Shown in pieces: positions 40 to 63,283 of a DNA stretch of 64,000 bases; positions within the stretch are counted from its first letter, which is position 1; each line of letters opens with the position of its first letter. Both the position numbers and the translations under genes were made by a program. The notes beneath the pieces were generated by a model. That model saw nothing but the letters and a program-made list of their open reading frames with translations, did not search any database and was not told where the DNA came from. The stretch comes from an uncultured Gammaproteobacteria bacterium (lineage in GTDB: Bacteria > Pseudomonadota > Gammaproteobacteria > CAZYYU01): assembly GCA_964651735.1 (NCBI GenBank), contig CAZYYU010000006.1:31945-95944 (forward strand). The letters run 5' to 3'.

Positions 40-1431
40 GTGTATCATTACGAGAATATGAAAGAAAACCGAGAGTTATTGGGCCATTTTTTAAGCTGGA
101 CGGATAAAAAATTTAATTATGATGGAATACCATTTGTAAAAGTACATAAATCGCACAATACAACCCAAGGCGACTTTTGTGAAGAGAAAAAAGATGAATC
201 TAATGGAAAATACTCCGTTCGTTATGTTTCCAAAAGGGGTCATGGGTCTTCGGCGGAAGTAACCATATATGTGGAGAAACGATGCCTGTCAGACAATAAA
301 CAACGTATTGCTGCTATTGATAGAGATATTGTAGAAAAAGATTCATCAAAATCGCAACTACAACGTGATAAGTTTATTGCCATAAAAGAAGCCGAAAGTT
401 TTCAGGTGGGTATCAATCTTATTCTCGCAGGAAATGCTGCGAAAAAAGAGGATTTTGATAGGGAAATTTCCAATATTAAATCTAGTATTCGCCGCTTAGA
501 AAGTGACATTATAGAAAGTGAGGAAGAACTAAATACTCTACGAGTAATTCTGAAAAATTTAATCACTGAATTTAAGGGAATTGAGAATGTTTTAGGTTTT
601 GTTTATGATTTTGTCAATGTCGTTTCGTATGATTCTGCTCTAATCAACGAATTTATTAAGCAATATACAAAATATATTAGTAATAGAAAGATCCCAAAAC
701 CTAGTCAATCTGTCGAATTTGATGTGCTTGTCAATAGTAATATGAGTGAGGAAAGATTAGTATCGAAAGATAAAGAAACTCAGGAAGATGTATTCGTACG
801 AAGTACAGTTCTTGAAAGTGAATATGTACCATTAAATGATCACTTAAATTCGGAGATCGAACCACCTGAAGAATTGTGTTGTTCGATAAGTACAATGCTC
901 TTAGTAGACCCGGTGGTTGCTACACACTGTGGTCATTCATTTGAACGAAAAGATCTTTCAAGTTATTTTCAACTCCAAGATTCTTTTGTGGTAGATTGTC
1001 CTGAGTGTCGTCATCCGATTAGAGAGAACGAATTGGTCACGAACTATAAACTTATAGATGTGATACGATGGTGGAAAAAGGAAAATCAAGTTACACTTAA
1101 TTTTAACAATGATACACCCATTCCTAAATCAGATAAAGAATTAGAAGAGCTCGATATAATAATTTCTGAATGTGATATTGAGTTGGGATCTCTCAAGCTC
1201 AAAGTGGAACAGTTAGAACGTGCTCAATCTATACGTCGAAGCTGCTTAAATGAAGGAAAAATTCTCTTAAAAAGAATCCATGAAGATGAAGACGAAGACG
1301 AAGAAAAGAAAAGCAATTCTCAAGATATCTCAGCAGGCTTGATCAGTATAGTCGGTCAACGATCTGGTAGTCCACTACATGAGAGAGAAAAAGATGATCT
1401 GCATTCTAATGGACCAGAACTTAAGAAATAG
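40..1431 (+). CDS. U-box domain, coiled-coil protein (eukaryotic-like E3 ubiquitin ligase candidate; effector-like)
   Basis: 463-aa ORF. Residues ~275-346 read PPEELCCSISTMLLVDPVVATHCGHSFERKDLSSYF..CPECRHPIRENELVTNYKLIDVIRWW, which fits the U-box pattern. Acidic EDEDEDEE block near the C-terminus. The frame is open back to nt 1, so the true start may be upstream of the window or at ATG 58. Confidence 0.8.
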   Translation: MYHYENMKENRELLGHFLSWTDKKFNYDGIPFVKVHKSHNTTQGDFCEEKKDESNGKYSVRYVSKRGHGSSAEVTIYVEKRCLSDNKQRIAAIDRDIVEKDSSKSQLQRDKFIAIKEAESFQVGINLILAGNAAKKEDFDREISNIKSSIRRLESDIIESEEELNTLRVILKNLITEFKGIENVLGFVYDFVNVVSYDSALINEFIKQYTKYISNRKIPKPSQSVEFDVLVNSNMSEERLVSKDKETQEDVFVRSTVLESEYVPLNDHLNSEIEPPEELCCSISTMLLVDPVVATHCGHSFERKDLSSYFQLQDSFVVDCPECRHPIRENELVTNYKLIDVIRWWKKENQVTLNFNNDTPIPKSDKELEELDIIISECDIELGSLKLKVEQLERAQSIRRSCLNEGKILLKRIHEDEDEDEEKKSNSQDISAGLISIVGQRSGSPLHEREKDDLHSNGPELKK

Positions 1432-1592: not shown

Positions 1593-3293
1593 ATGAGTGG
1601 AACAGAACGACGTGAAGTTCCTAATGTTAACAACCTCACTGCAGCTGATTTACAACAGTTTACAACATCAGTGTTACAAGGAGGGCTACTAGATACAGAT
1701 TTAATTGCCTTTCTGCAAAACGCAGATACCAATTGTCGTAATGATCATAAAATGTTTATATTCATTCTTTATGAATCTATTCGAATAACACTGAATATTG
1801 AATCCCAAGGAATTTTCAATAAGCGATATGGATATGTACACGAATTTTATGAGCAGAGTTGGCTGTTTTGTAATAATCCGAATTATCAGATTGGAAATTT
1901 GGCAAATGTAATTCCAAAGCTAACACAAGCTTTCAATTTAATGCTAATTAATTCAAAGATACGTATTACATTAGATAGCAGTGTTGTATATTTTTGTGTT
2001 AGTTCAACAATGCTTGAAATATCAATTAAAGAGATTGAAAAAGATATCACAGAAGTAAATTGTGAGTCTGCCGAATTAGAGAGCCATGTTGACTATTTGT
2101 TTAAGTTTTATTTAACTTGGATATCAAATAAAATATCTGGTGAATATTTAAAGGATTATTTTGAAATAATTCAAGACAAAAATATTGATTTAATTGTGAG
2201 GATGTTGAAAGTCTTCTCTTCTATACTTGTTTCAAAATATGGCATAAATAAATATAAGGAGTATATAGATTTTTTTGAGTCACAAGATAGAAAGAGAGAA
2301 AATTTATTGAAATATTCAAAAAAACCTATTATGGGGGATGCAATTCTAATCCATTGGTATCCATATGGTGCTGATCAAACAGGCCATGTTGGTTTATTAA
2401 TATTGCCTGATGGGCTAAAAGTAGAACCTTCATCATGTCTTGATTTTCTAGCCAGTCCAGCCGTAGAGAATGCGATGTATCGAGGATTAGTTCCTATTTT
2501 TGATGATTCAACGGAAAAAAAACAAGATGTCAAATTAGTTCTAAAAAATGCTCAAGAAGGATCTGTCAAGGGGAGATTTGTAACAACTTTCGAAGAAGAT
2601 ATGAAGCTTCATTTCATTAATGAAAAGGATTTTTCGAAAGATGAATTGAAAAAAAAATTGAATGAAAGAATAGAAGCGGTGTTAATAAAGGACCTTAATG
2701 TAGCTTATATGAGAGCTGTTTACGAATTTAAGTATGAGTTTTTATTGATGATAGATGCATTAAATTGGACCTTACCCGGCCGAGGATACAAAGAGCGACA
2801 TCACAATTGCTGTACATTTGTGCTATCGATGATATTTGAGGGAAAAATTGGTTATCTGGATTTGTACGACCAACTTCCCTTTCGTGAGACAGAATGGAAT
2901 AAACTGATTGATTACATGAATTATCCCGGCGGTCATTCAATGCTGTATGAAGTATTATGGTATTTTTTACCGGCACTAATAGAATGCTGGCGACCTGATA
3001 AGTTGATTTGTAAAATGTTTGAATTAGCTGAAAAAAATAGAGTGACTACCACTCCAAAAAATACTACGGAATTAGTTAAAGTTCTTAGTATGAGTGAACC
3101 CGACACATCACAACCACGCCCTCCTACTGAACTAGAGCTGTTTGAAAATTCATGGCGAGGACGTCTATTTCCTAATCAAAAAGCAAAAACTCCTGGTTTA
3201 AATTGGCTGATCAAATCACATAAAGCACTATTTTCAGAGTTCCCACATTTAAAAGAGGAGTTGGAAACTAATGCAGCCAAAGATCATAATTAA
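1593..3293 (+). CDS. Hypothetical protein with a possible LRAT/H-rev107-like permuted NlpC/P60 (His..Cys) domain
   Basis: 566-aa ORF with SD gggaga 6-8 nt upstream. GDAILIHWYPYGADQTGHVGLLILPDGLKVEPSS (aa 248-281) and HHNCCTFV (aa 403-410) resemble the LRAT-family His box and NCEHFV Cys box. Confidence 0.6.
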   Translation: MSGTERREVPNVNNLTAADLQQFTTSVLQGGLLDTDLIAFLQNADTNCRNDHKMFIFILYESIRITLNIESQGIFNKRYGYVHEFYEQSWLFCNNPNYQIGNLANVIPKLTQAFNLMLINSKIRITLDSSVVYFCVSSTMLEISIKEIEKDITEVNCESAELESHVDYLFKFYLTWISNKISGEYLKDYFEIIQDKNIDLIVRMLKVFSSILVSKYGINKYKEYIDFFESQDRKRENLLKYSKKPIMGDAILIHWYPYGADQTGHVGLLILPDGLKVEPSSCLDFLASPAVENAMYRGLVPIFDDSTEKKQDVKLVLKNAQEGSVKGRFVTTFEEDMKLHFINEKDFSKDELKKKLNERIEAVLIKDLNVAYMRAVYEFKYEFLLMIDALNWTLPGRGYKERHHNCCTFVLSMIFEGKIGYLDLYDQLPFRETEWNKLIDYMNYPGGHSMLYEVLWYFLPALIECWRPDKLICKMFELAEKNRVTTTPKNTTELVKVLSMSEPDTSQPRPPTELELFENSWRGRLFPNQKAKTPGLNWLIKSHKALFSEFPHLKEELETNAAKDHN

Positions 3294-3311
3294 GACAGCA
3301 GGGTCAGGGAT

Positions 3312-3505
3312 GGGGGTCAAACCGAGCCTCTTAAAAATAATCTCAATCAAATCAACCAGTTAAAAGGTTCATCTTGCCGTCTTCAACAAGGCTTCTTGCA
3401 TTGCTAGGGATGAAATAAAAACTTGCGCGGTTTGACACCGCAAGGTGAAAAGGCTAATTACTTGAAATAACGAGAGTTTTTTTAAACAGGCTCGGTTTGA
3501 CCCCC
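3312..3505 (+). mobile_element. MITE-like nested-palindrome element, copy 1 (shorter, inner repeat degenerate)
   Basis: Termini gggggtcaaaccgagcctctt ... caggctcggtttgaccccc form an inverted repeat. An inner pair is built around gtcttcaacaaggcttctt / gcggtttgacaccgc. Same family as the copies at 39283, 40358 and 43005. Confidence 0.75.
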
Positions 3506-38264: not shown

Positions 38265-39278
38265 TTGATTCAAACTACTTTCAACATTGCTGATGAAATA
38301 GTTCTGCCTGGAACTAAAAAAGTTATTTTATTTCCCGCACCCAATCTCAACAACCAAGCAAAAATTAATGTACCTGTGCATGTTTTTCACGGTAAAAAAC
38401 GTGGACCTCAATTATTTATTTTAAGTGGTATTCATGGTGATGAATTAAATGGAATTGAAATTATTCGCAGGTTACATAAGCATATTCATACTGATCATTT
38501 ATCCGGAACCTTAATAACTTTACCCATGGTTAATATTCATGGTCTTATGGTGCAAAAACGCTATTTTACCGATAGACGTGATTTGAATAGAACTTTTCCC
38601 GGTAAGGAAACAGGTACACTCGCCTCACGATTTGCTCACGGAATTATGCATCATATTGTCAAAGGATCTGATTATGGCATTGATTTACATACCGGTGCGG
38701 TAGGGCACACAAATATGCCACAAATTCGTGTGGATTTTAGTGTGACAGGTGCTAAAAAATTTGCTCAAAGTTTTGCACCGCCCATTATTCTTGAAGCAGA
38801 CACCCCTACACGATCTTTGCGGGAGGCTGCGAGTAAACTGGATATTCCCGTAATAGTCTATGAAGGTGGAGAAGCATTACGATACAGTGAAATCTGCATC
38901 CGCGAAGGTGTGAGAGGCATTATGCATGCCATGAAATATTTGAAAATGATCGATTTTGTCGAAAGACACATTCCACACAAAACCATCATCGCCAACACCA
39001 GTCGATGGTTACGCGCCCCAGCGAGTGGACTCGTACAACCGGTAGTCGATGTCTTCACCAAAAAAGTAAAAAAAGGCCAATTATTAGCACATATCCATGA
39101 TCCCTTTTTGATTAATCCCACGGTTGATGTCTTAGCACCTTTTGAAGGAATCGTGGTAGGTCAAGCAATGCGCGCCATGGCAACGGAAGGTGATGCGCTT
39201 TATCATATTGCCAGTTCTAAGAAAATGGCAGGGTATAAGCCCTATATTGATGAGTATAGGGATACTGTTAGCTTGTGA
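38265..39278 (+). CDS. Succinylglutamate desuccinylase/aspartoacylase (AstE/AspA, M14-like) family protein
   Basis: SGIHGDELNGIEIIRRL and DLNRTFPG motifs. TTG start with SD ggaggga. Confidence 0.82.
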   Translation: MIQTTFNIADEIVLPGTKKVILFPAPNLNNQAKINVPVHVFHGKKRGPQLFILSGIHGDELNGIEIIRRLHKHIHTDHLSGTLITLPMVNIHGLMVQKRYFTDRRDLNRTFPGKETGTLASRFAHGIMHHIVKGSDYGIDLHTGAVGHTNMPQIRVDFSVTGAKKFAQSFAPPIILEADTPTRSLREAASKLDIPVIVYEGGEALRYSEICIREGVRGIMHAMKYLKMIDFVERHIPHKTIIANTSRWLRAPASGLVQPVVDVFTKKVKKGQLLAHIHDPFLINPTVDVLAPFEGIVVGQAMRAMATEGDALYHIASSKKMAGYKPYIDEYRDTVSL

Positions 39279-39282
39279 TGTA

Positions 39283-39494
39283 GGGGTCAAACCGAGCCTC
39301 TTTATAAGATTTCTAAATAAATCAAGCGCTTAGAGTCTCCTTCATGCGGTGTCAAACAAGGCTTCTTTTTTTCCGGAGAAATAATTATTGCTAATGCTAC
39401 GATCGAACAAAGAAGCGTGGTTTGACACCGCTAGGGATGAGCTTTAACAAGTTGATTTAAATGAGGATTTTTTGAAGAGGCTCGGTTTGACCCC
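39283..39494 (+). mobile_element. MITE-like nested-palindrome element, copy 2 (full length)
   Basis: Outer inverted repeat ggggtcaaaccgagcctctt / aagaggctcggtttgacccc. Inner inverted repeat gcggtgtcaaacaaggcttctt / aagaagcgtggtttgacaccgc. Starts 5 nt after the upstream stop. Confidence 0.85.
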
Positions 39495-39571
39495 TATATT
39501 TTTCCATTTATTGACCTCATTGTCGGTATTGACGATAATGTAATTGTTATCACATTTGATAGGTGTAAACC

Positions 39572-58416: not shown

Positions 58417-59697
58417 GTGCGGGTGAAGAAAATATTAAGGACAAATCAAGTTTTAATCAGTGTCATCATACTGATATTTGCTTTCATCCAATGGTCGCCC
58501 ATGTCTTTTGCGCAAGCCCTGATTAAGAGTCTGCAGGTTTCAACAAAATCGCAACAAGCCTCTTTGGTTTTCGAGTTGGATAATGAGTTTACTTATCGTT
58601 CTTTCAAATTAGCGGATCCTGATCGTTTGGTGATTGATTTTATTGATGTGAAAAATGCGGTGGATTTTAATAAAGTGAATTTATCTAATACACCCGTTGA
58701 TAAAATTCGATCGGGTATTCATGAAAACAAATATGAACGCATCGTTTTGGATTTGAATAAAAATTATCCTCATAAAATTATTGAAGTCGATAGAGATGAG
58801 AGTAGGGGGCCGCGCTTAGTTATCGAGTTCCAATATGCTATCAAGCAAGTCTTAAAGAAAGAGGAGCAACCTGTTGTTATTGTTAAGAATTCTGCTTCTA
58901 AACCGAAGCCGACTGTGGTTGCTTTGGAGCCGGATACTAATCGTGACATTATTGTGGTGATAGACCCAGGTCATGGGGGTAAAGATCCTGGAGCCACAGG
59001 TCCCTTTGGCTCACGTGAAAAAGATATTGTCTTGGCGATTGCCAAAAAATTGCAAGCGGAAATCAATCAACAGCCAGGATTTAAAGCGATCTTGACGAGG
59101 AGTGGTGATTATTATTTGGGATTGAGGCAACGTTTAAATTTGGCTCATAAACATAAAGCAGATATGTTCGTGGCCATTCATGCCGATGCCTATAAACATC
59201 AACATGCTGCTGGTGCAGCGGTCTATGCCTTGTCCGAGCACGGTGCAACCAGTGAGGCGGCCAGATGGCTAGCGCAGCGTGAAAATGAATCGGAATTAGT
59301 GGGTGGAGTGGATTTGACGGATAAAGATAAAATACTCAAATCTGTTTTACTGGATTTATCACAAACTTATTCGATTGGAGTGAGTCTTACGATGGGCTCG
59401 AATATTTTAGAGCAAATGTCGAAGTTTTCGCCCTTACATCATGATAAAGTGGAACAAGCAGCCTTTGTGGTTCTCAAATCCCCCGATATTCCCTCGCTGC
59501 TGATCGAAACTGGATTTTTATCCAACCCTCGTGAAGAGGCTAAATTACGCACTCCTGAATATCAGGGGCGAGTGGCTGTTGCCTTGATGAGTGGAATTAA
59601 AAGTTATTTTGTAAACAACCCACCTCGGGGAACATCATTAGCTATGTTGCGGGAGCGTAATAATGAAAATCAAATCCCTAGACCCCTTACTCGCTAA
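58417..59697 (+). CDS. amiB: N-acetylmuramoyl-L-alanine amidase (AMIN + Amidase_3)
   Basis: Signal peptide and AMIN-like N-terminal domain (RLVIDF), IDPGHGGKDPGA, and HADA. Position nnr-tsaE-amiB-mutL as in E. coli. Confidence 0.9.
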   Translation: MRVKKILRTNQVLISVIILIFAFIQWSPMSFAQALIKSLQVSTKSQQASLVFELDNEFTYRSFKLADPDRLVIDFIDVKNAVDFNKVNLSNTPVDKIRSGIHENKYERIVLDLNKNYPHKIIEVDRDESRGPRLVIEFQYAIKQVLKKEEQPVVIVKNSASKPKPTVVALEPDTNRDIIVVIDPGHGGKDPGATGPFGSREKDIVLAIAKKLQAEINQQPGFKAILTRSGDYYLGLRQRLNLAHKHKADMFVAIHADAYKHQHAAGAAVYALSEHGATSEAARWLAQRENESELVGGVDLTDKDKILKSVLLDLSQTYSIGVSLTMGSNILEQMSKFSPLHHDKVEQAAFVVLKSPDIPSLLIETGFLSNPREEAKLRTPEYQGRVAVALMSGIKSYFVNNPPRGTSLAMLRERNNENQIPRPLTR

Positions 59698-61480
59698 TCA
59701 AATTGCGGCGGGTGAGGTCGTTGAGCGACCCGCTTCTGTGGTTAAAGAGTTAGTGGAAAACAGTATTGATGCCGGTGCCACACATATTGAAATTGACATT
59801 GAGCAAGGTGGAAAGGGGCTCATCAGAATTCGAGATAATGGCAGTGGAATTTTAAAAGACGATTTACACTTAGCCTTGTCTCGACATGCCACCAGTAAAA
59901 TCGAAAATTTGTCGGATTTAGAAAATGTCTTGAGCTTGGGTTTTAGAGGTGAGGCGCTGGCCAGTGTAAGTGCGGTATCTCGATTAACCCTAACCTCCAA
60001 AACAGCTGAACAAGAGACGGCCTGGTCTATTAAAGCAGAGGGTCGATTACCGGATACTAGCTTAAGTCCAGCTTCTCATCCTGTGGGCACCACCGTTGAA
60101 GTCAGGGATTTATTTTTTAATACCCCAGCACGGCGAAAATTTTTAAAGGGTGATAAAACAGAATCTCAACATATTGAAACTTTGATAAAACGTTTATCAA
60201 TCAGTTGCTTCCCTGTAAGTCTTCAACTGAAATCTCAACAAAAAGAGCTGCTCAATTTACCGGCTGCAAGCTCCATGGCTGAGTTTGAACAGCGTATTGC
60301 AAAAGTGTGTGGACAAGCCTTTATAGACAATGCCATTGCCTTTGAAAAAGAAGTGGCGGGTCTAAAACTGTGGGGGTGGATAGGATTACCGACCTTTTCC
60401 AGAAGTCAGAGTGATATGCAATATTTTTATGTGAATGGGCGTTTTGTGCGAGATAAGTTGTTGATTCATGCTGTTCGTCAAGCCTATCAGGATGTGCTGT
60501 ATCAGGGACGACAGCCGGTTTTTGTTTTGTTTTTAGATATTGATCCTAGTGTCGTGGATGTGAATGTACATCCGACCAAGCATGAGGTGCGGTTTAGGGA
60601 TGCTAAGATGGTTCATGATATTGTGCGTAGGACTTTGAAAGAGGTGATTGGGCAGGTGCGACCTGGTCATGTTCAGAATCAGAATGAGGCGGCCTTTATC
60701 CCCCCCTCCGCCCCTTTGGGGCACCTCCCCCCTGAGGGGGGAGGATTATCTTTTGCTCCCCCTTCCGGGGGGAGCTGTCGACCTCTTCCAATTCACTCTT
60801 CAATCATCAAAGAGCAACTAGCCCTCTACAGCACCCAGCAAGCTCCAAATCGCACACACGCTCCCATCGACACTACAACAGCTCCACCCCCCGAAATCCC
60901 ACCCCTAGGCTACGCCATAGCCCAACTCCACGGCATCTACATCCTCGCCCAAAACGAAAAGGGCTTAGTCCTCATTGATATGCACGCCGCTCACGAACGT
61001 ATCTCATACGAACGCCTCAAAAAAGCCTGCTCTCTAGGAAATGTACCAGCTCAAGACTTACTCATTCCCCTGACATTCAATGTCAACGAAGAAGAAGCAA
61101 CCCTCGCAGAAGAGCGCTCAGAGGATTTTGCGACCTTAGGCCTAAAGGTCGAGCGCATTGCTCAAGATCTCCTTGCCATCCGATCAGTTCCCAGTATTTT
61201 ACAAGACGCCAATGCCGAGCAACTCGTCAGAGATGTGATTGCCGATTTTATGACTTATGAAGACAGTTCTCGAATCCAAGAACATATGAATGAGATATTG
61301 GCAACGATGGCCTGTCATGGCTCGGTCCGCGCTAATCGAAAATTAACGATCATGGAAATGAATGCTATCTTAAGGGATATGGAAGTTACCGAGAGAAGTG
61401 GGCAGTGTAATCATGGTCGCCCAACCTGGATTCAGATGAGCTTAGAAGAACTTGATAAACTGTTTTTAAGAGGCAGGTAA
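59663..61480 (+). CDS. mutL: DNA mismatch repair protein MutL
   Basis: NQIAAGEVVERPASVVKELVENSIDAG, DNGSGI and GFRGEAL. C-terminal domain QLHGIYILAQNEKGLVLIDMHAAHERI and ACHGSVRAN. The linker carries the GC-rich repeat. Confidence 0.96.
   Translation: MKIKSLDPLLANQIAAGEVVERPASVVKELVENSIDAGATHIEIDIEQGGKGLIRIRDNGSGILKDDLHLALSRHATSKIENLSDLENVLSLGFRGEALASVSAVSRLTLTSKTAEQETAWSIKAEGRLPDTSLSPASHPVGTTVEVRDLFFNTPARRKFLKGDKTESQHIETLIKRLSISCFPVSLQLKSQQKELLNLPAASSMAEFEQRIAKVCGQAFIDNAIAFEKEVAGLKLWGWIGLPTFSRSQSDMQYFYVNGRFVRDKLLIHAVRQAYQDVLYQGRQPVFVLFLDIDPSVVDVNVHPTKHEVRFRDAKMVHDIVRRTLKEVIGQVRPGHVQNQNEAAFIPPSAPLGHLPPEGGGLSFAPPSGGSCRPLPIHSSIIKEQLALYSTQQAPNRTHAPIDTTTAPPPEIPPLGYAIAQLHGIYILAQNEKGLVLIDMHAAHERISYERLKKACSLGNVPAQDLLIPLTFNVNEEEATLAEERSEDFATLGLKVERIAQDLLAIRSVPSILQDANAEQLVRDVIADFMTYEDSSRIQEHMNEILATMACHGSVRANRKLTIMEMNAILRDMEVTERSGQCNHGRPTWIQMSLEELDKLFLRGR
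60700..60744 (-). repeat. GC-rich palindromic module (inverted orientation) inside the mutL linker coding region
   Basis: ccccccctccgcccctttggggcacctcccccctgaggggggagg is the reverse complement of the 48168-type module. Confidence 0.85.
60755..60775. repeat. Accessory GC-rich hairpin next to the mutL module
   Basis: gctccccc-ttcc-ggggggagc, translated as APPSGGS. Confidence 0.6.
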
Positions 61481-61520: not shown

Positions 61521-62153
61521 TTAAGGCGAAACATATGTTACTGGAAAACTAAAACTGAGGTTTTCAAGAATGCCTATAGGCGTAACATAGGCTGCAATTG
61601 ATATATTTCCAAATGCTAGAATGTTTAAACCTGATCCGGCGAGGATTGTTTGCAGACTAGTTGCTCCTACTACTCCAGGGGTTAGATTAGGATTATTTGC
61701 AGAAACTAGAAATCCTTTTGAATAGATGGAATTTTGTCCAGCAAAGCCATTCAAAACAAGGCTTTCATCCGCTTGTTCTAACACGGTATTACTAGCTGGA
61801 AATGGTGCCGTGACTCCGTAAGCTACTATTCGTGTTCCTGTGCAACGCCATTGACCTACACTTTTCGGTGTAGTTAAAGCATTACCAAAAACATCATAGG
61901 TACCTGCTGGAAAAACTGATCCTACCAATAAAAAGGTGGATCCAGCTGGCACTACAGTGGCTGGATTAGAAACAATACCAGACCCCGTGTTTGCATAGAA
62001 TAAACCACCATTTGAAGGTGAAACTAGTACTTGCAATTGGTTTGTGGTAACTAAGGCACCGGATCCGGCCATTACTTGAAAGGACAAAGCAAACAATAAT
62101 AGGGACATTAAGGTCAAGGAAGCCAGTTTAGTGCTCAATGTATAGGTGTTCAT
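61521..62153 (-). CDS. Secreted beta-rich hypothetical protein
   Basis: Signal peptide ..LLLFALSFQVMAGSGA with SD aaggag. Gly/Ser/Thr/Asn/Val-rich. No recognisable motif. Confidence 0.7.
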   Translation of the reverse strand: MNTYTLSTKLASLTLMSLLLFALSFQVMAGSGALVTTNQLQVLVSPSNGGLFYANTGSGIVSNPATVVPAGSTFLLVGSVFPAGTYDVFGNALTTPKSVGQWRCTGTRIVAYGVTAPFPASNTVLEQADESLVLNGFAGQNSIYSKGFLVSANNPNLTPGVVGATSLQTILAGSGLNILAFGNISIAAYVTPIGILENLSFSFPVTYVSP

Positions 62154-62377: not shown

Positions 62378-63283
62378 ATGGCTAGTTTAGATCTAGAGGA
62401 AGACGATAGGGAGAAACAAAATGAAGATGCTCAAACGAAAAGAATTAAAGAGATTTTAGTAGAATTACTAGTCACTGATGTATTCGCCTCAGCTAAGACC
62501 TTTACTATTCTCGAGGAGAAGGACGCCGAATTAGGAAATTATAGCCAAGCTTTATTGAAAGAAGTAGGCAGACGATATTATTTAGATCCTCCCTTATTGT
62601 TTGGGAGATTGTATGTTAAAGAAAGGTTTTGGGCCCAATCTTTACTTGAAATTGTAGATAAGTATCAGCATATTAAAAAGTTAAAGAAGCTGAAGAATAT
62701 TTGTATCATCGTAGAAGCTATTCGAGATGGAAGATCGCAATTCCAAAATCAAAATTTATCAGAGACGGTATTTAATGATGCTGATGAGTTGCAAGAACTG
62801 CGAGAACACCTGTGGTTTTTTCTGGCAAGTCATCAAGATAATGGAGTTTCTTCCATTGAGGCATTTGACAAAATTGCAAAACACGCTGCTCGATATTTAC
62901 ATAGCGATTGGGACACCGATCGTGCACAAGCAGGTAATGAAAAATACGCACAATTGGTTCAATTATTTCAAGCGATCAGAAACATTGATGATTTTGATGC
63001 CATAGAAAGATTAACAAAAATACGAGCTTTGATTATCGCTGAGCTTGAAGCGGATCCGGATGAAAATAATCTCATTTCTAATCGAGGTGGATTTTTTGGT
63101 GCTTATAAAACGATGAGTAAGTGCTTAAATAAACTTGGTTTTCTACATTATTCCTATAAGGGCAGAACAGCTATTTCCACGACAGATCATTTGCTAATTG
63201 AGTTAGTTGATACGATTAACGAACACCTGATGAACTTAGGGGTTGAGGATCCAGATCAACTGCCTCGTGTTGAAGTACTGTAG
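62378..63283 (+). CDS. Hypothetical helical protein (effector-like orphan)
   Basis: 301-aa ORF with SD agagg. Acidic N-terminus. No recognisable motif. Confidence 0.7.
   Translation: MASLDLEEDDREKQNEDAQTKRIKEILVELLVTDVFASAKTFTILEEKDAELGNYSQALLKEVGRRYYLDPPLLFGRLYVKERFWAQSLLEIVDKYQHIKKLKKLKNICIIVEAIRDGRSQFQNQNLSETVFNDADELQELREHLWFFLASHQDNGVSSIEAFDKIAKHAARYLHSDWDTDRAQAGNEKYAQLVQLFQAIRNIDDFDAIERLTKIRALIIAELEADPDENNLISNRGGFFGAYKTMSKCLNKLGFLHYSYKGRTAISTTDHLLIELVDTINEHLMNLGVEDPDQLPRVEVL

What the first reader, a model, noticed from the sequence alone, without database searches (positions are those of the whole stretch)
60700..60775. GC-rich palindromic module translated in frame inside the MutL linker
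In an AT-rich window, 60700-60744 is the reverse complement of the intergenic module at 48168-48214 and of the copy at 22787-22828. A second hairpin, gctccccc-ttcc-ggggggagc, follows at 60755-60775. The mutL frame reads straight through (..FIPPSAPLGHLPPEGGGLSFAPPSGGSCRP..) in the poorly conserved linker between the N-terminal ATPase and C-terminal dimerisation domains. Relative to the coding strand, this copy has the same orientation and the same reading frame as the tamA copy (PSLRLRHLPPWGGG). So the repeat persists inside ORFs as a peptide-coding insertion. That behaviour is established for Rickettsia palindromic elements. I do not recognise this element family.
Basis: partly seen in the sequence, partly recalled or inferred. 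Interest (0 to 1): 0.75.

Follow-up and report, generated by a model that had tools for sequence, protein, structure and literature searches.

The report
GC-rich hairpin repeat inside mutL
A 45-base, GC-rich, double-hairpin repeat that is scattered through this AT-rich bacterial genome (and, in related forms, through many other bacteria) sits in frame inside the flexible linker of the DNA-repair protein MutL and adds 15 amino acids; this kind of event is already known from other small palindromic repeats.

Summary
The window (about 38% GC, from an activated-sludge metagenome) holds three copies of a 42-47 nt module: hairpin CCTCCCCCC-N3-GGGGGGAGG, then T, then hairpin GCC(CC)-GAA-(GG)GGC, then a GGAGGGGGG tail. 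One copy, in reverse orientation, lies in frame in the mutL linker and adds 15 codons (PPSAPLGHLPPEGGG). A second splits the TamA signal peptide. A third lies 32 nt upstream of dnaG.

One orthologue (L040 for MutL, L161 for TamA) lacks the module at each site. Three close MutL relatives carry modules in the same linker, in either orientation and in other reading frames, so there were several insertion events.

The same sequencing runs hold dozens of further copies with unrelated AT-rich flanks. The same layout turns up across phyla (Deinococcus, Sinorhizobium, Dehalococcoidia, Clostridia, Xanthomonas-like variants). Its second stem covaries and its loop is almost always a GNA triloop. Rfam has no match. 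The GTAG/CGTC tags of described REPs and MITE-type terminal inverted repeats are absent.

Best reading: a REP-like, non-autonomous hairpin repeat tolerated in a disordered linker. That makes it a new family of a known phenomenon (Rickettsia palindromic elements, intragenic REPs). How it moves was not shown. Interest is moderate.

The parts
60700..60746 (-). Module copy inside mutL, with the module's own 5'-3' direction on the minus strand. On the plus (mutL sense) strand it reads C-rich block 60700-60709, hairpin 2 (60710-60714 paired with 60718-60722), A 60723, hairpin 1 (60724-60732 paired with 60736-60744). It encodes MutL residues 347-361, PPSAPLGHLPPEGGG.
   Evidence: (I8, I16)
60755..60775 (.). 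Second hairpin GCTCCCCC-TTCC-GGGGGGAGC. It is a hairpin-1-like partial or decayed module and encodes (A)PPSGGS. The same variant hairpin follows the mutL stop codon in relative L036 (5184-5202).
59663..61480 (+). mutL ORF (605 aa). The N-terminal ATPase and C-terminal dimerisation/endonuclease domains lie in one frame on either side of the module.
48166..48214 (+). Intergenic module copy, 32 nt upstream of the dnaG ORF start (48134, minus strand), in the divergent region between dnaG and ORF 48284-49885.
22786..22828 (+). Module copy with the short hairpin 2 (GCC-GAA-GGC). It is read on the minus strand as PSLRLRHLPPWGGG, inside the TamA signal peptide.
21058..22857 (-). tamA. The likely start is ATG 22857, which overlaps the end of rluD. 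The product starts MKIIRQIVLI[PSLRLRHLPPWGGG]IILALLFLISLHVSAA|SK.

Best explanation
The 45-nt stretch in mutL is one copy of a small, non-autonomous, GC-rich double-hairpin repeat. It is REP-like or mini-MITE-like and is dispersed in this low-GC gammaproteobacterial genome.

SHOWN:
- It is a repeat.
- It is an insertion relative to orthologues.
- It is a multiple of three long, and the reading frame used has no stop codon. MutL therefore stays intact and gains 15 Pro/Gly-rich residues in the interdomain linker, which varies in length and is predicted to lack structure.
- The tamA copy likewise sits in a tolerant place, inside the signal peptide, lengthening the segment ahead of an intact hydrophobic core.
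- Close relatives carry several modules in the same linker, in either orientation and in other frames, so there were at least three separate events.
- The two hairpins are conserved by compensatory change.
- The module belongs to a cross-phylum superfamily.

INFERRED:
- Copies survive in the linker because insertions there are harmless (a survivorship 'safe harbour'), not because MutL needs them.
- The element spreads as a folded single DNA strand handled in trans by an enzyme that reads the conserved hairpin-1 stem and G-rich tail, for example a Y1/HUH transposase of the RAYT/IS200 kind. The basis is that hairpin 2 nearly always ends in a C-GNA-G triloop. From my own knowledge, that is the extra-stable DNA mini-hairpin motif d(GCGAAGC) rather than a favoured RNA loop. 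No transposase was identified.
For: - Repeat, and not chance.
- Insertion relative to orthologues: mutL; tamA.
- Copy number: in runs from the same community the module is found in 31 (mutL copy) and 37 (dnaG copy) Logan contigs of X1. Those shown (the longest) have unrelated, mostly AT-rich flanks and depths of 3-9x, like the host's 3.5-7x. Summed depth over the module is 258-2529. One contig has a tandem duplicate.
- Relatives: L036 has a '+' and a '-' module in the linker, L037 has decayed versions of both, L038 has two '+' modules, and L040 has none. L037 also has decayed intergenic copies, and L036 has a hairpin directly after the mutL stop.
- Frames: all six frames of the three window copies are open except one with a loop TGA, and all give Pro/Gly/Arg-rich peptides.
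- Folding: hairpin 1 of 9 bp plus hairpin 2 of 5 bp, -16 kcal/mol, z -2.2 to -3.3; with the second hairpin, -26.3 kcal/mol, z -4.4.
- Hairpin 2 covariation: 40 unique variants form 94% of the possible inner pairs, against 24% in shuffles, and loops are nearly all GAA/GCA/GTA/GGA. In the formal count 100% of cells are paired, 3 pairs show compensatory changes, and 0 of 500 shuffles reach the score.
- Linker: AF2 gives pLDDT below 50 and coil for residues 334-415, except a short helix at 380-390 (the model is weak overall).
- Orientation relative to flanking genes is not fixed and divergent contexts are rare, as for REPs (PMC3733652).
Against: - No transposase, target-site duplication or empty/filled polymorphism was found. 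No joints appeared, and flank comparison is blurred by divergence.
- Only 64 kb of the host genome could be read. The host contig is masked in the look-up tool. The host copy number therefore rests on community contigs, which may include relatives.
- The superfamily hits were retrieved with patterns that fix hairpin 1, TGCC and part of the tail. Conservation of those parts is partly imposed by the search.
- The same hairpin 1 also occurs inside clearly different repeats (a 115-nt MITE with terminal inverted repeats in a Competibacteraceae MAG). Some of the similarity may therefore be convergent.
- Seven modules or remnants crowd into the mutL linker across four lineages. This could also mean targeting or selection rather than mere tolerance.
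Confidence: 0.75

Rival explanations
1. The module in mutL is kept by selection because it acts in cis on mutL. Either its very stable mRNA structure tunes MutL translation, or its homopolymer runs (C7, C6, G6, C5, G6) make mutL prone to slippage. In the second case the cell could switch mismatch repair off and on again, a contingency mutator locus.
For: - The 121-nt mRNA stretch folds at -61 kcal/mol, z -4.2.
- Four related lineages all keep one or two modules in this one linker, whereas their remaining roughly 30 kb of contig holds few copies.
- REP insertions are reported to be frequent in DNA replication and repair genes (PMC3733652).
- Homopolymer and short-repeat slippage switches in mismatch-repair genes are known in other bacteria (own knowledge).
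Against: - No length variants of the runs were seen in four runs (sections 4). Contigs do hide rare variants.
- L037's copies are decaying by substitution, which argues against constraint.
- L040 does well without any module.
- Orientation and frame differ between relatives.
- The relatives' contigs were chosen because they carry mutL, so the apparent enrichment is biased.
Confidence: 0.1
2. The copies spread without any dedicated transposase. Possible routes are recombination or gene conversion between existing copies, or hairpin-primed or template-switch repair synthesis. Different block combinations (C-rich block, hairpin 1, hairpin 2, G-rich tail) would arise in this way.
For: - Architectures are modular. 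There is a full palindrome in L067, three-way-junction forms with an upstream C-rich block (L041, L116, L150), forms lacking the 5' arm (L045, L152, L154), and units where hairpin 1's 3' arm plus hairpin 2 are swapped for another insert (L107).
- Orientation differs at the same linker site between close relatives.
- No target-site duplication is visible.
Against: Dozens of copies with unrelated flanks and the new tamA insertion absent from an 83%-identical orthologue require movement to new sites, not only exchange between old ones.
Confidence: 0.12
3. It is not a mobile repeat. The Pro/Gly-rich linker segment evolved in place, or the homopolymer-rich stretch is an assembly artefact (a chimeric join at a repeat).
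For: - MutL linkers are naturally variable and often Pro-rich.
- No single Logan contig bridges 60656-60736.
Against: - The stretch has 91% DNA identity to an intergenic copy.
- Both junctions are confirmed separately, and both flanks are mutL in one frame.
- The tamA copy is spanned without any difference by independent contigs.
- Chance expectation is 0.
Confidence: 0.03

Closest known systems
Rickettsia palindromic elements (RPE; Ogata et al. 2000, own knowledge; RPE-4 and RPE-6 are treated as CGTC-type REPs in PMC3733652)
   Same: A dispersed palindromic repeat of an AT-rich, probably host-associated bacterium. It is found both between genes and in frame inside genes, where it adds a peptide segment without destroying the protein. 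Insertion sites lie in tolerant regions.
   Different: Size is 42-47 nt, against about 100-150 nt for RPE-1 and similar elements. Composition is extremely GC-rich. The layout is two hairpins plus a G-rich tail. The host is a gammaproteobacterium. The family is not lineage-restricted.
REP elements of the GTAG and CGTC super-families and their intragenic copies (Di Nocera, De Gregorio & Rocco 2013, PMC3733652)
   Same: Small GC-rich stem-loop repeats. They lie mostly between convergent or co-directional genes, occur in several phyla, and sometimes sit inside ORFs, notably DNA synthesis and repair genes (uvrA, uvrB, recB, dnaE). They encode up to 20-30 residues and are sometimes inserted twice in one gene.
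   Different: There is no unpaired GTAG or CGTC tag and no CCA tail. A second, covarying hairpin with a GNA triloop and a GGAGGGGG tail is present. Copies in the window are singletons, not head-to-head dimers. mutL is not among the genes listed there (0 occurrences of 'mutL'). No RAYT was seen.
GC clusters and double-hairpin / repetitive hairpin-forming elements of fungal, chytrid and sponge mitochondria (PMC2800124 and references there; details from own knowledge)
   Same: GC-rich hairpin or double-hairpin repeats that invade AT-rich genomes. They occur in intergenic regions, rRNA and protein-coding genes and are suspected to be mobile. No enzyme is known.
   Different: They occur in organelles, not bacteria. 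The sequences are unrelated. This is an analogy only.
Bacterial MITEs that overlap ORFs, such as Coxiella burnetii QMITE1/QMITE2 (PMC5896051)
   Same: Non-autonomous repeats in a low-GC gammaproteobacterium. Some overlap ORFs and lie near DNA-repair genes.
   Different: QMITEs are 150-400 bp with direct repeats of 2-11 nt, and QMITE2 carries a GTAG REP. The module here is 45 nt and has no terminal inverted repeats and no visible direct repeats.
Rhizobial intergenic repeats (RIMEs, Sm-repeats, AB and C palindromes; mentioned in PMC2573895)
   Same: A Sinorhizobium replicon carries the same layout: TCTCCCCC-TTGC-GGGGGAGG-T-GCCC-GGCA-GGGC-AGAGGAGGG. The module may therefore overlap one of these named but functionally unexplained repeat classes.
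   Different: Their consensus sequences could not be read here (PMC177356 is not held), so identity is untested.

Membership tests
Rickettsia palindromic elements (RPE) | Dispersed palindromic repeat present in many copies in the genome | tested here: met
   There are 3 copies plus 1 partial copy in 64 kb. In the same runs 31 (mutL copy) and 37 (dnaG copy) Logan contigs of X1 carry the module; those shown have unrelated, mostly AT-rich flanks.
Rickettsia palindromic elements (RPE) | In-frame insertion in ORFs that is absent from orthologues, with the host protein otherwise intact | tested here: met
   mutL. tamA.
Rickettsia palindromic elements (RPE) | Sequence and size of RPE families (about 100-150 bp, Rickettsia lineage) | tested here: not met
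   The module is 42-47 nt. The host is a gammaproteobacterium. RPE sizes are from own knowledge. No RPE sequence was available for alignment.
REP, GTAG/CGTC super-families (PMC3733652) | Short GC-rich stem-loop repeat in high copy number | tested here: met
REP, GTAG/CGTC super-families (PMC3733652) | Unpaired GTAG or CGTC tag at one end (plus a CCA-type tail in the CGTC, GTAG-1 and GTAG-2 families) | tested here: not met
   The ends are CCTCCCCCC... and ...GGAGGGGG(G) in all 77 unique modules and in the three window copies.
REP, GTAG/CGTC super-families (PMC3733652) | Location mainly between convergent or co-directional genes, rarely between divergent ones | tested here: met
   GC3-phase calls on flanks of GC-rich loci give co-directional 24, convergent 9, divergent 3. 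This is a rough method. One of the three window copies is in a divergent region.
REP, GTAG/CGTC super-families (PMC3733652) | Association with a RAYT (Y1 transposase) gene flanked by the repeats | not testable with these tools
   Only 64 kb of the host is readable. No transposase appeared among the 28 distinct window ORFs scanned.
MITE | Terminal inverted repeats | tested here: not met
   The left end CCTCCCCCC and right end GGAGGGGGG are mirror images, not reverse complements. Inverted symmetry is internal (the hairpins).
MITE | Target-site duplication | tested here: inconclusive
   TTAT flanks the mutL copy on both sides and TA flanks the tamA copy. Nothing comparable flanks the dnaG copy or the GC-rich copies. 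No empty allele was found in the runs.
Described structured RNA families (Rfam 15) | Match to a covariance model at gathering score | tested here: not met
   The window and 11 loci carrying the module gave only tRNA and 5S hits. A permissive scan of 48100-48300 gave only chance-level hits with E of 0.44 or more.

The most novel reading that the evidence does not exclude
The module may be more than a selfish repeat. It could be a cross-phylum, sequence- and structure-conserved nucleic-acid device. Its G-rich tail (GGAGGGGGG) mirrors the hairpin-1 purine arm (GGGGGGAGG). That would allow an intramolecular purine-motif triplex (H-DNA) or a three- or four-way junction, read by a conserved and still unknown protein. 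Placed in mutL, its homopolymer runs could in addition act as a reversible mutator switch.
Probability: 0.12. Interest if true: 0.75.

Novelty: new member of a known kind. Interest (0 to 1): 0.45.

Why it matters
- **MutL linker.** The MutL interdomain linker can absorb repeated invasions by a hairpin repeat in either orientation. This is a natural experiment on how little that linker's sequence matters.
- **Tolerant sites.** The case adds mutL, and a signal peptide, to the places where palindromic repeats are translated.
- **An unfiled repeat superfamily.** The module is a small, very widespread double-hairpin repeat (covarying stem, GNA triloop, mirrored G blocks). Rfam and the GTAG/CGTC REP scheme do not cover it, and no mobilising enzyme is known for it.
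- **Annotation.** Such modules generate spurious Pro/Gly/Arg-rich 'hypothetical proteins' and break short-read assemblies. Naming the family would help both.

Tried and rejected
- **Rfam.** The window, 11 module-bearing loci and a permissive local scan gave nothing.
- **5'-UTR leader or riboswitch with a sequestered Shine-Dalgarno.** Some GC-rich copies are followed by ATG. The idea was rejected because only 55 of 140 copies have any long ORF starting downstream and orientation relative to flanking coding strands is not consistent.
- **Literature searches by sequence string** returned only primer coincidences.
- **Search for proteins carrying the module-encoded peptide.** The first query was too short.
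- **Covariance model.** The MAFFT alignment of 30 modules (A3) did not respect the stems, so no model was built. A hand-made alignment with nhmmer was used instead.
- **Target-site duplication and exact boundaries.** Filled versus empty site comparisons are too diverged to decide.
- **RNA evidence.** No RNA runs hold the region.
- **AF2 of MutL.** With 12 sequences the model is poor (mean pLDDT 56.7). It is used only as weak support for a disordered linker.
- **'Type B' hits.** Hits from the first genome scan in Chloroflexaceae and Competibacteraceae share hairpin 1 but are different, larger repeats. They are not counted as the same family.
Full report
**1. What is in the sequence**

The window averages about 38% GC. 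At 60700-60746 the plus strand reads CCCCCCCTCC GCCCC-TTT-GGGGC A CCTCCCCCC-TGA-GGGGGGAGG AT. Two further copies lie on the other strand sense:
- 48166-48214: CCTCCCCCCC-TC-GGGGGGAGG T GCCCC-GAA-GGGGC GGAGGGGGGGGG.
- 22786-22828: CCTCCCCCCC-AA-GGGGGGAGG T GCC-GAA-GGC GGAGGGAGGG.

The repeat finder pairs 48166-48212 with 60700-60746 at 91% complementarity over 47 nt. It pairs 22786-27 with 60704-45 at 79%. The hairpin-1 pattern occurs three times exactly, plus once with three mismatches (60755-60775). No match occurred in 100 shuffles. A hand-aligned profile searched with nhmmer finds no further copies in the window.

The module is therefore: hairpin 1 (9 bp), T, hairpin 2 (3-5 bp with a 3-nt loop), and a G-rich tail that mirrors the 3' arm of hairpin 1. 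As single-stranded DNA it folds into exactly these two hairpins at -13 to -17 kcal/mol, with z -2.2 to -3.3 for three of the four folded copies. The 48166 copy (z -1.4) prefers an alternative long stem between the C arm and the tail. With the extra hairpin at 60755-60775 the stretch reaches -26.3 kcal/mol, z -4.4.

**2. Gene context**

ORF 59663-61480 is MutL, with all four Pfam domains and 605 aa. The module occupies codons 347-361 (PPSAPLGHLPPEGGG), and the second hairpin occupies about codons 366-371. Both lie between the last conserved N-terminal block (HPTKHEVRFR...) and the C-terminal block (PPLGYA...). An AlphaFold model is poor overall because the alignment is shallow. It shows residues 334-415 as coil with pLDDT below 50, except a short helix at 380-390.

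The 22786 copy lies in ORF 21058-22863 on the minus strand, which is TamA. The TamA profile starts aligning only at residue 31, after the module. The most plausible start is ATG 22857, which overlaps the rluD stop, and the public gene call uses the same start (P0121). The N-terminus then reads MKIIRQIVLI[PSLRLRHLPPWGGG]IILALLFLISLHVSAA|SK. The module interrupts a signal peptide but leaves an 11-residue hydrophobic core and the cleavage motif.

The 48166 copy lies 32 nt upstream of the dnaG ORF, in a divergent intergenic region. All three copies have the same orientation relative to the nearest gene's sense strand. With three copies this is not significant.

**3. Is it an insertion?**

*MutL.* The four closest MutLs (P0002-P0005) are 82-88% identical to the window's outside the linker, and their DNA was fetched.
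- L040 has no module. Its linker reads ...KQQPISFAQPH..., where the window reads ...[module]LSFA[hairpin]... The small motif (L/M/I)SF is shared with more distant MutLs.
- L036 carries two modules in the same linker: one in '+' orientation (CCTCCCCCC-TAC-GGGAGGAG A TCCC-GAA-GGGA GAGGGGGGG) and one in '-' orientation.
- L037, whose MutL is 95% identical to L036's, has substitution-decayed versions of both.
- L038 has two '+' modules.
- The frames used differ. For example, L036's '-' copy is read ...GTSPRRGE..., against GHLPPEGG in the window.
- Among the 120 best MutL hits, only this small clade has module-derived peptides.

*TamA.* The closest orthologue (P0122, 83% identical, from the same sample as L036) has a plain signal peptide, MNILKKLILPTLLLISFQIIAA|PKY. 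Its DNA shows a 54-nt gap where the window has the module plus about 11 nt.

Both intragenic copies are therefore insertions. The tamA one is specific to the window's lineage. The mutL linker was hit at least three times within the clade. Whether the window's '-' copy is orthologous to L036's '-' copy cannot be decided.

**4. Is it a dispersed repeat and not an artefact?**

The window comes from activated-sludge runs (X1 and X2 hold 94% and 85% of its words). Logan contigs of these runs cover the unique flanks at 3.5-7x. Over the module, 31 contigs (mutL copy, X1) and 37 contigs (dnaG copy, X1) pile up. Those shown (the longest) have unrelated, mostly AT-rich flanks and depths of 3-9x, and summed depth over the module is 258-2529. 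One contig shows a tandem duplicate. Similarity begins at 60695-60703 and ends at 60741-60749, which sets the element's size at about 45 nt.

This implies tens to a few hundred copies in low-GC genomes of that community. How many belong to the host itself cannot be settled, because the host contig could not be read beyond the window.

The tamA copy is spanned without any difference by independent contigs of three runs. For mutL each junction is confirmed separately, and both flanks are mutL in one frame. No length variants and no empty alleles were seen, although contigs hide rare variants.

**5. The wider family**

An exact-pattern scan of species-representative genomes (hairpin 1 plus TGCC) gave 35 loci. 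Eleven of them have the complete layout, including a tail that the pattern did not demand. They come from Dehalococcoidia, Caulobacterales, Rhizomicrobium, Mesorhizobium, Clostridia and an unnamed proteobacterium. Seventy-seven unique complete modules were collected.

Annotated replicons of cultured bacteria carry it too:
- Deinococcus aquaticus, between ureC and ureB: CCTCCCC-TTGA-GGGGAGG-T-GCCC-GAA-GGGC-GGAGGGG.
- Sinorhizobium.
- A Xanthomonas sacchari tandem array with the same layout but different stem letters and an outer stem that closes a cloverleaf-like unit.

Hairpin 2 varies in length and sequence but stays paired: 94% of possible inner pairs, against 24% in shuffles, across 40 unique variants. 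In the formal count 100% of cells are paired, three pairs show compensatory changes, and 0 of 500 shuffles reach the score. Its loop is almost always GAA, GCA, GTA or GGA closed by C-G.

Variants exist:
- With an upstream C-rich block that can pair with the tail (L041, L116, L150).
- As a full palindrome (L067).
- Without the 5' arm (L045, L152).
- In tandem arrays (L064, L085, L107).

Orientation relative to neighbouring genes is not fixed and divergent contexts are rare. That argues against a 5'-leader RNA and fits REP-like repeats. Rfam has no matching family.

Two caveats apply. The search patterns impose part of the conservation. Hairpin 1 alone also occurs inside unrelated larger repeats, for example a 115-nt MITE with 11-nt terminal inverted repeats in a Competibacteraceae MAG.

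**6. How it most likely works**

*Shown.* The element is a repeat that has reached new sites, including two ORFs. Insertions that survive in ORFs are multiples of three (45 nt in mutL; 42 nt of module within a 54-nt gap in tamA). The element is nearly stop-free in all six frames and always encodes Pro/Gly/Arg-rich, disorder-friendly peptides. The two ORF sites are places where extra residues do little harm.

*Inferred.* The linker is a safe harbour where copies accumulate by survivorship. The element is probably handled as folded single-stranded DNA. The C-GNA-G triloop is the classic extra-stable DNA mini-hairpin (own knowledge: d(GCGAAGC), Hirao and co-workers), whereas RNA elements favour tetraloops. 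The stem of hairpin 1 and the tail are conserved in sequence while the distal stem of hairpin 2 is free to vary. That is what recognition by a trans-acting protein such as a Y1/HUH (RAYT/IS200-type) transposase would produce.

No such gene was found in the 28 distinct window ORFs scanned. No target duplication could be established. The mobilisation step is therefore a hypothesis with roughly even odds.

**7. Rivals**

- A cis function in mutL (mRNA structure of -61 kcal/mol; slippage-prone C7/G6 runs as a mutator switch) cannot be excluded. The crowding of modules in this one linker hints at it, as does the reported excess of REPs in repair genes (PMC3733652). Against it stand the decay in L037, the module-free L040, and the lack of length variants.
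- Spread by recombination or repair synthesis fits the modular architectures. It does not by itself explain new sites.
- In-place evolution and assembly error are effectively refuted.

**8. Comparison with what is known**

The behaviour matches Rickettsia palindromic elements and the intragenic REPs catalogued by Di Nocera et al. (PMC3733652). They already report REPs inside uvrA, uvrB, recB and dnaE, double insertions in one gene, and inserts of 20-30 residues.

The module fails the defining features of those families. It has no GTAG or CGTC tag, it is far smaller than RPE-1-type elements, and it has no MITE-type terminal inverted repeats. Coxiella QMITEs are 150-400 bp (PMC5896051). Mitochondrial GC clusters and double-hairpin elements are an architectural analogy only (PMC2800124). 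It may overlap the named but unexplained rhizobial repeats (RIME, Sm-repeats, AB/C palindromes; PMC2573895), which could not be checked.

**9. Verdict**

It is a new family within a known phenomenon. Interest is 0.45.

Noticed in passing
window 3310-3505, 39278-39499, 40354-40571, 42995-43216: A second, unrelated repeat family: palindromic elements of about 190-215 nt with terminal inverted repeats GGGGGTCAAACCGAGCCTCTT... (MITE-like). Two copies flank the PhzF-like gene 39572-40354. The terminal motif resembles the GGGGWSAS motif that PMC3733652 reports for inverted repeats next to tyrosine-transposase genes.
   Followed up: partly
window 40-1431 (+): The ORF has a eukaryote-type U-box (E3 ubiquitin ligase) domain. 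Several neighbouring ORFs match no family (1593-3293, 11211-13367, 48284-49885, 61521-62153, 62378-63283). This suggests a host-associated lifestyle, but the taxonomic order is not established.
   Followed up: no
window 56225-56256 and 56310-56341: A 32-nt inverted repeat, 97% complementary, with a 53-nt spacer, in the intergenic region before ORF 56370-57899 (I17). It is unrelated to the module.
   Followed up: no
L005, L008, L012, L018, L020, L025, L033 (Competibacteraceae MAG): A repeat of about 115 nt with 11-nt terminal inverted repeats GTAASCGTTCA. It contains the same hairpin 1 plus other C/G-rich hairpins, and at least 7 copies lie in one MAG. This shows that the hairpin-1 motif is shared by distinct elements.
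   Followed up: partly
L162 1440-2080 (Xanthomonas sacchari plasmid NZ_CP010410, 409.1-409.7 kb): A tandem array (period about 135 nt) of a cloverleaf-like unit. It has an outer stem GTACCCTCA/TGAGGGTAC and three hairpins, with the same hairpin-T-hairpin-tail order as the module but different stem letters. It lies between two oxidoreductase genes.
   Followed up: partly
L107 4795-5449 (seawater metagenome contig, 71% GC): A 100-nt tandem array of 6.6 units that carries the module. In some units the 3' arm of hairpin 1 plus hairpin 2 are replaced by an unrelated 22-nt insert between the C arm and the G tail.
   Followed up: partly
L034 6685-6709 (Dehalococcoidia MAG): A module identical to those of two other Dehalococcoidia species lies about 85 nt downstream of a 5S rRNA gene.
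   Followed up: no
L038 8749-9807: An IS110-family transposase gene (DEDD_Tnp_IS110, Transposase_20) lies about 4 kb downstream of mutL in a relative. No module lies next to it.
   Followed up: partly
window 46428-48134 and 48284-49885: dnaG is not preceded by rpsU as in many gammaproteobacteria. Instead it faces a divergent 533-aa ORF with a hydrophobic Gly/Ala-rich centre and no family match.
   Followed up: no
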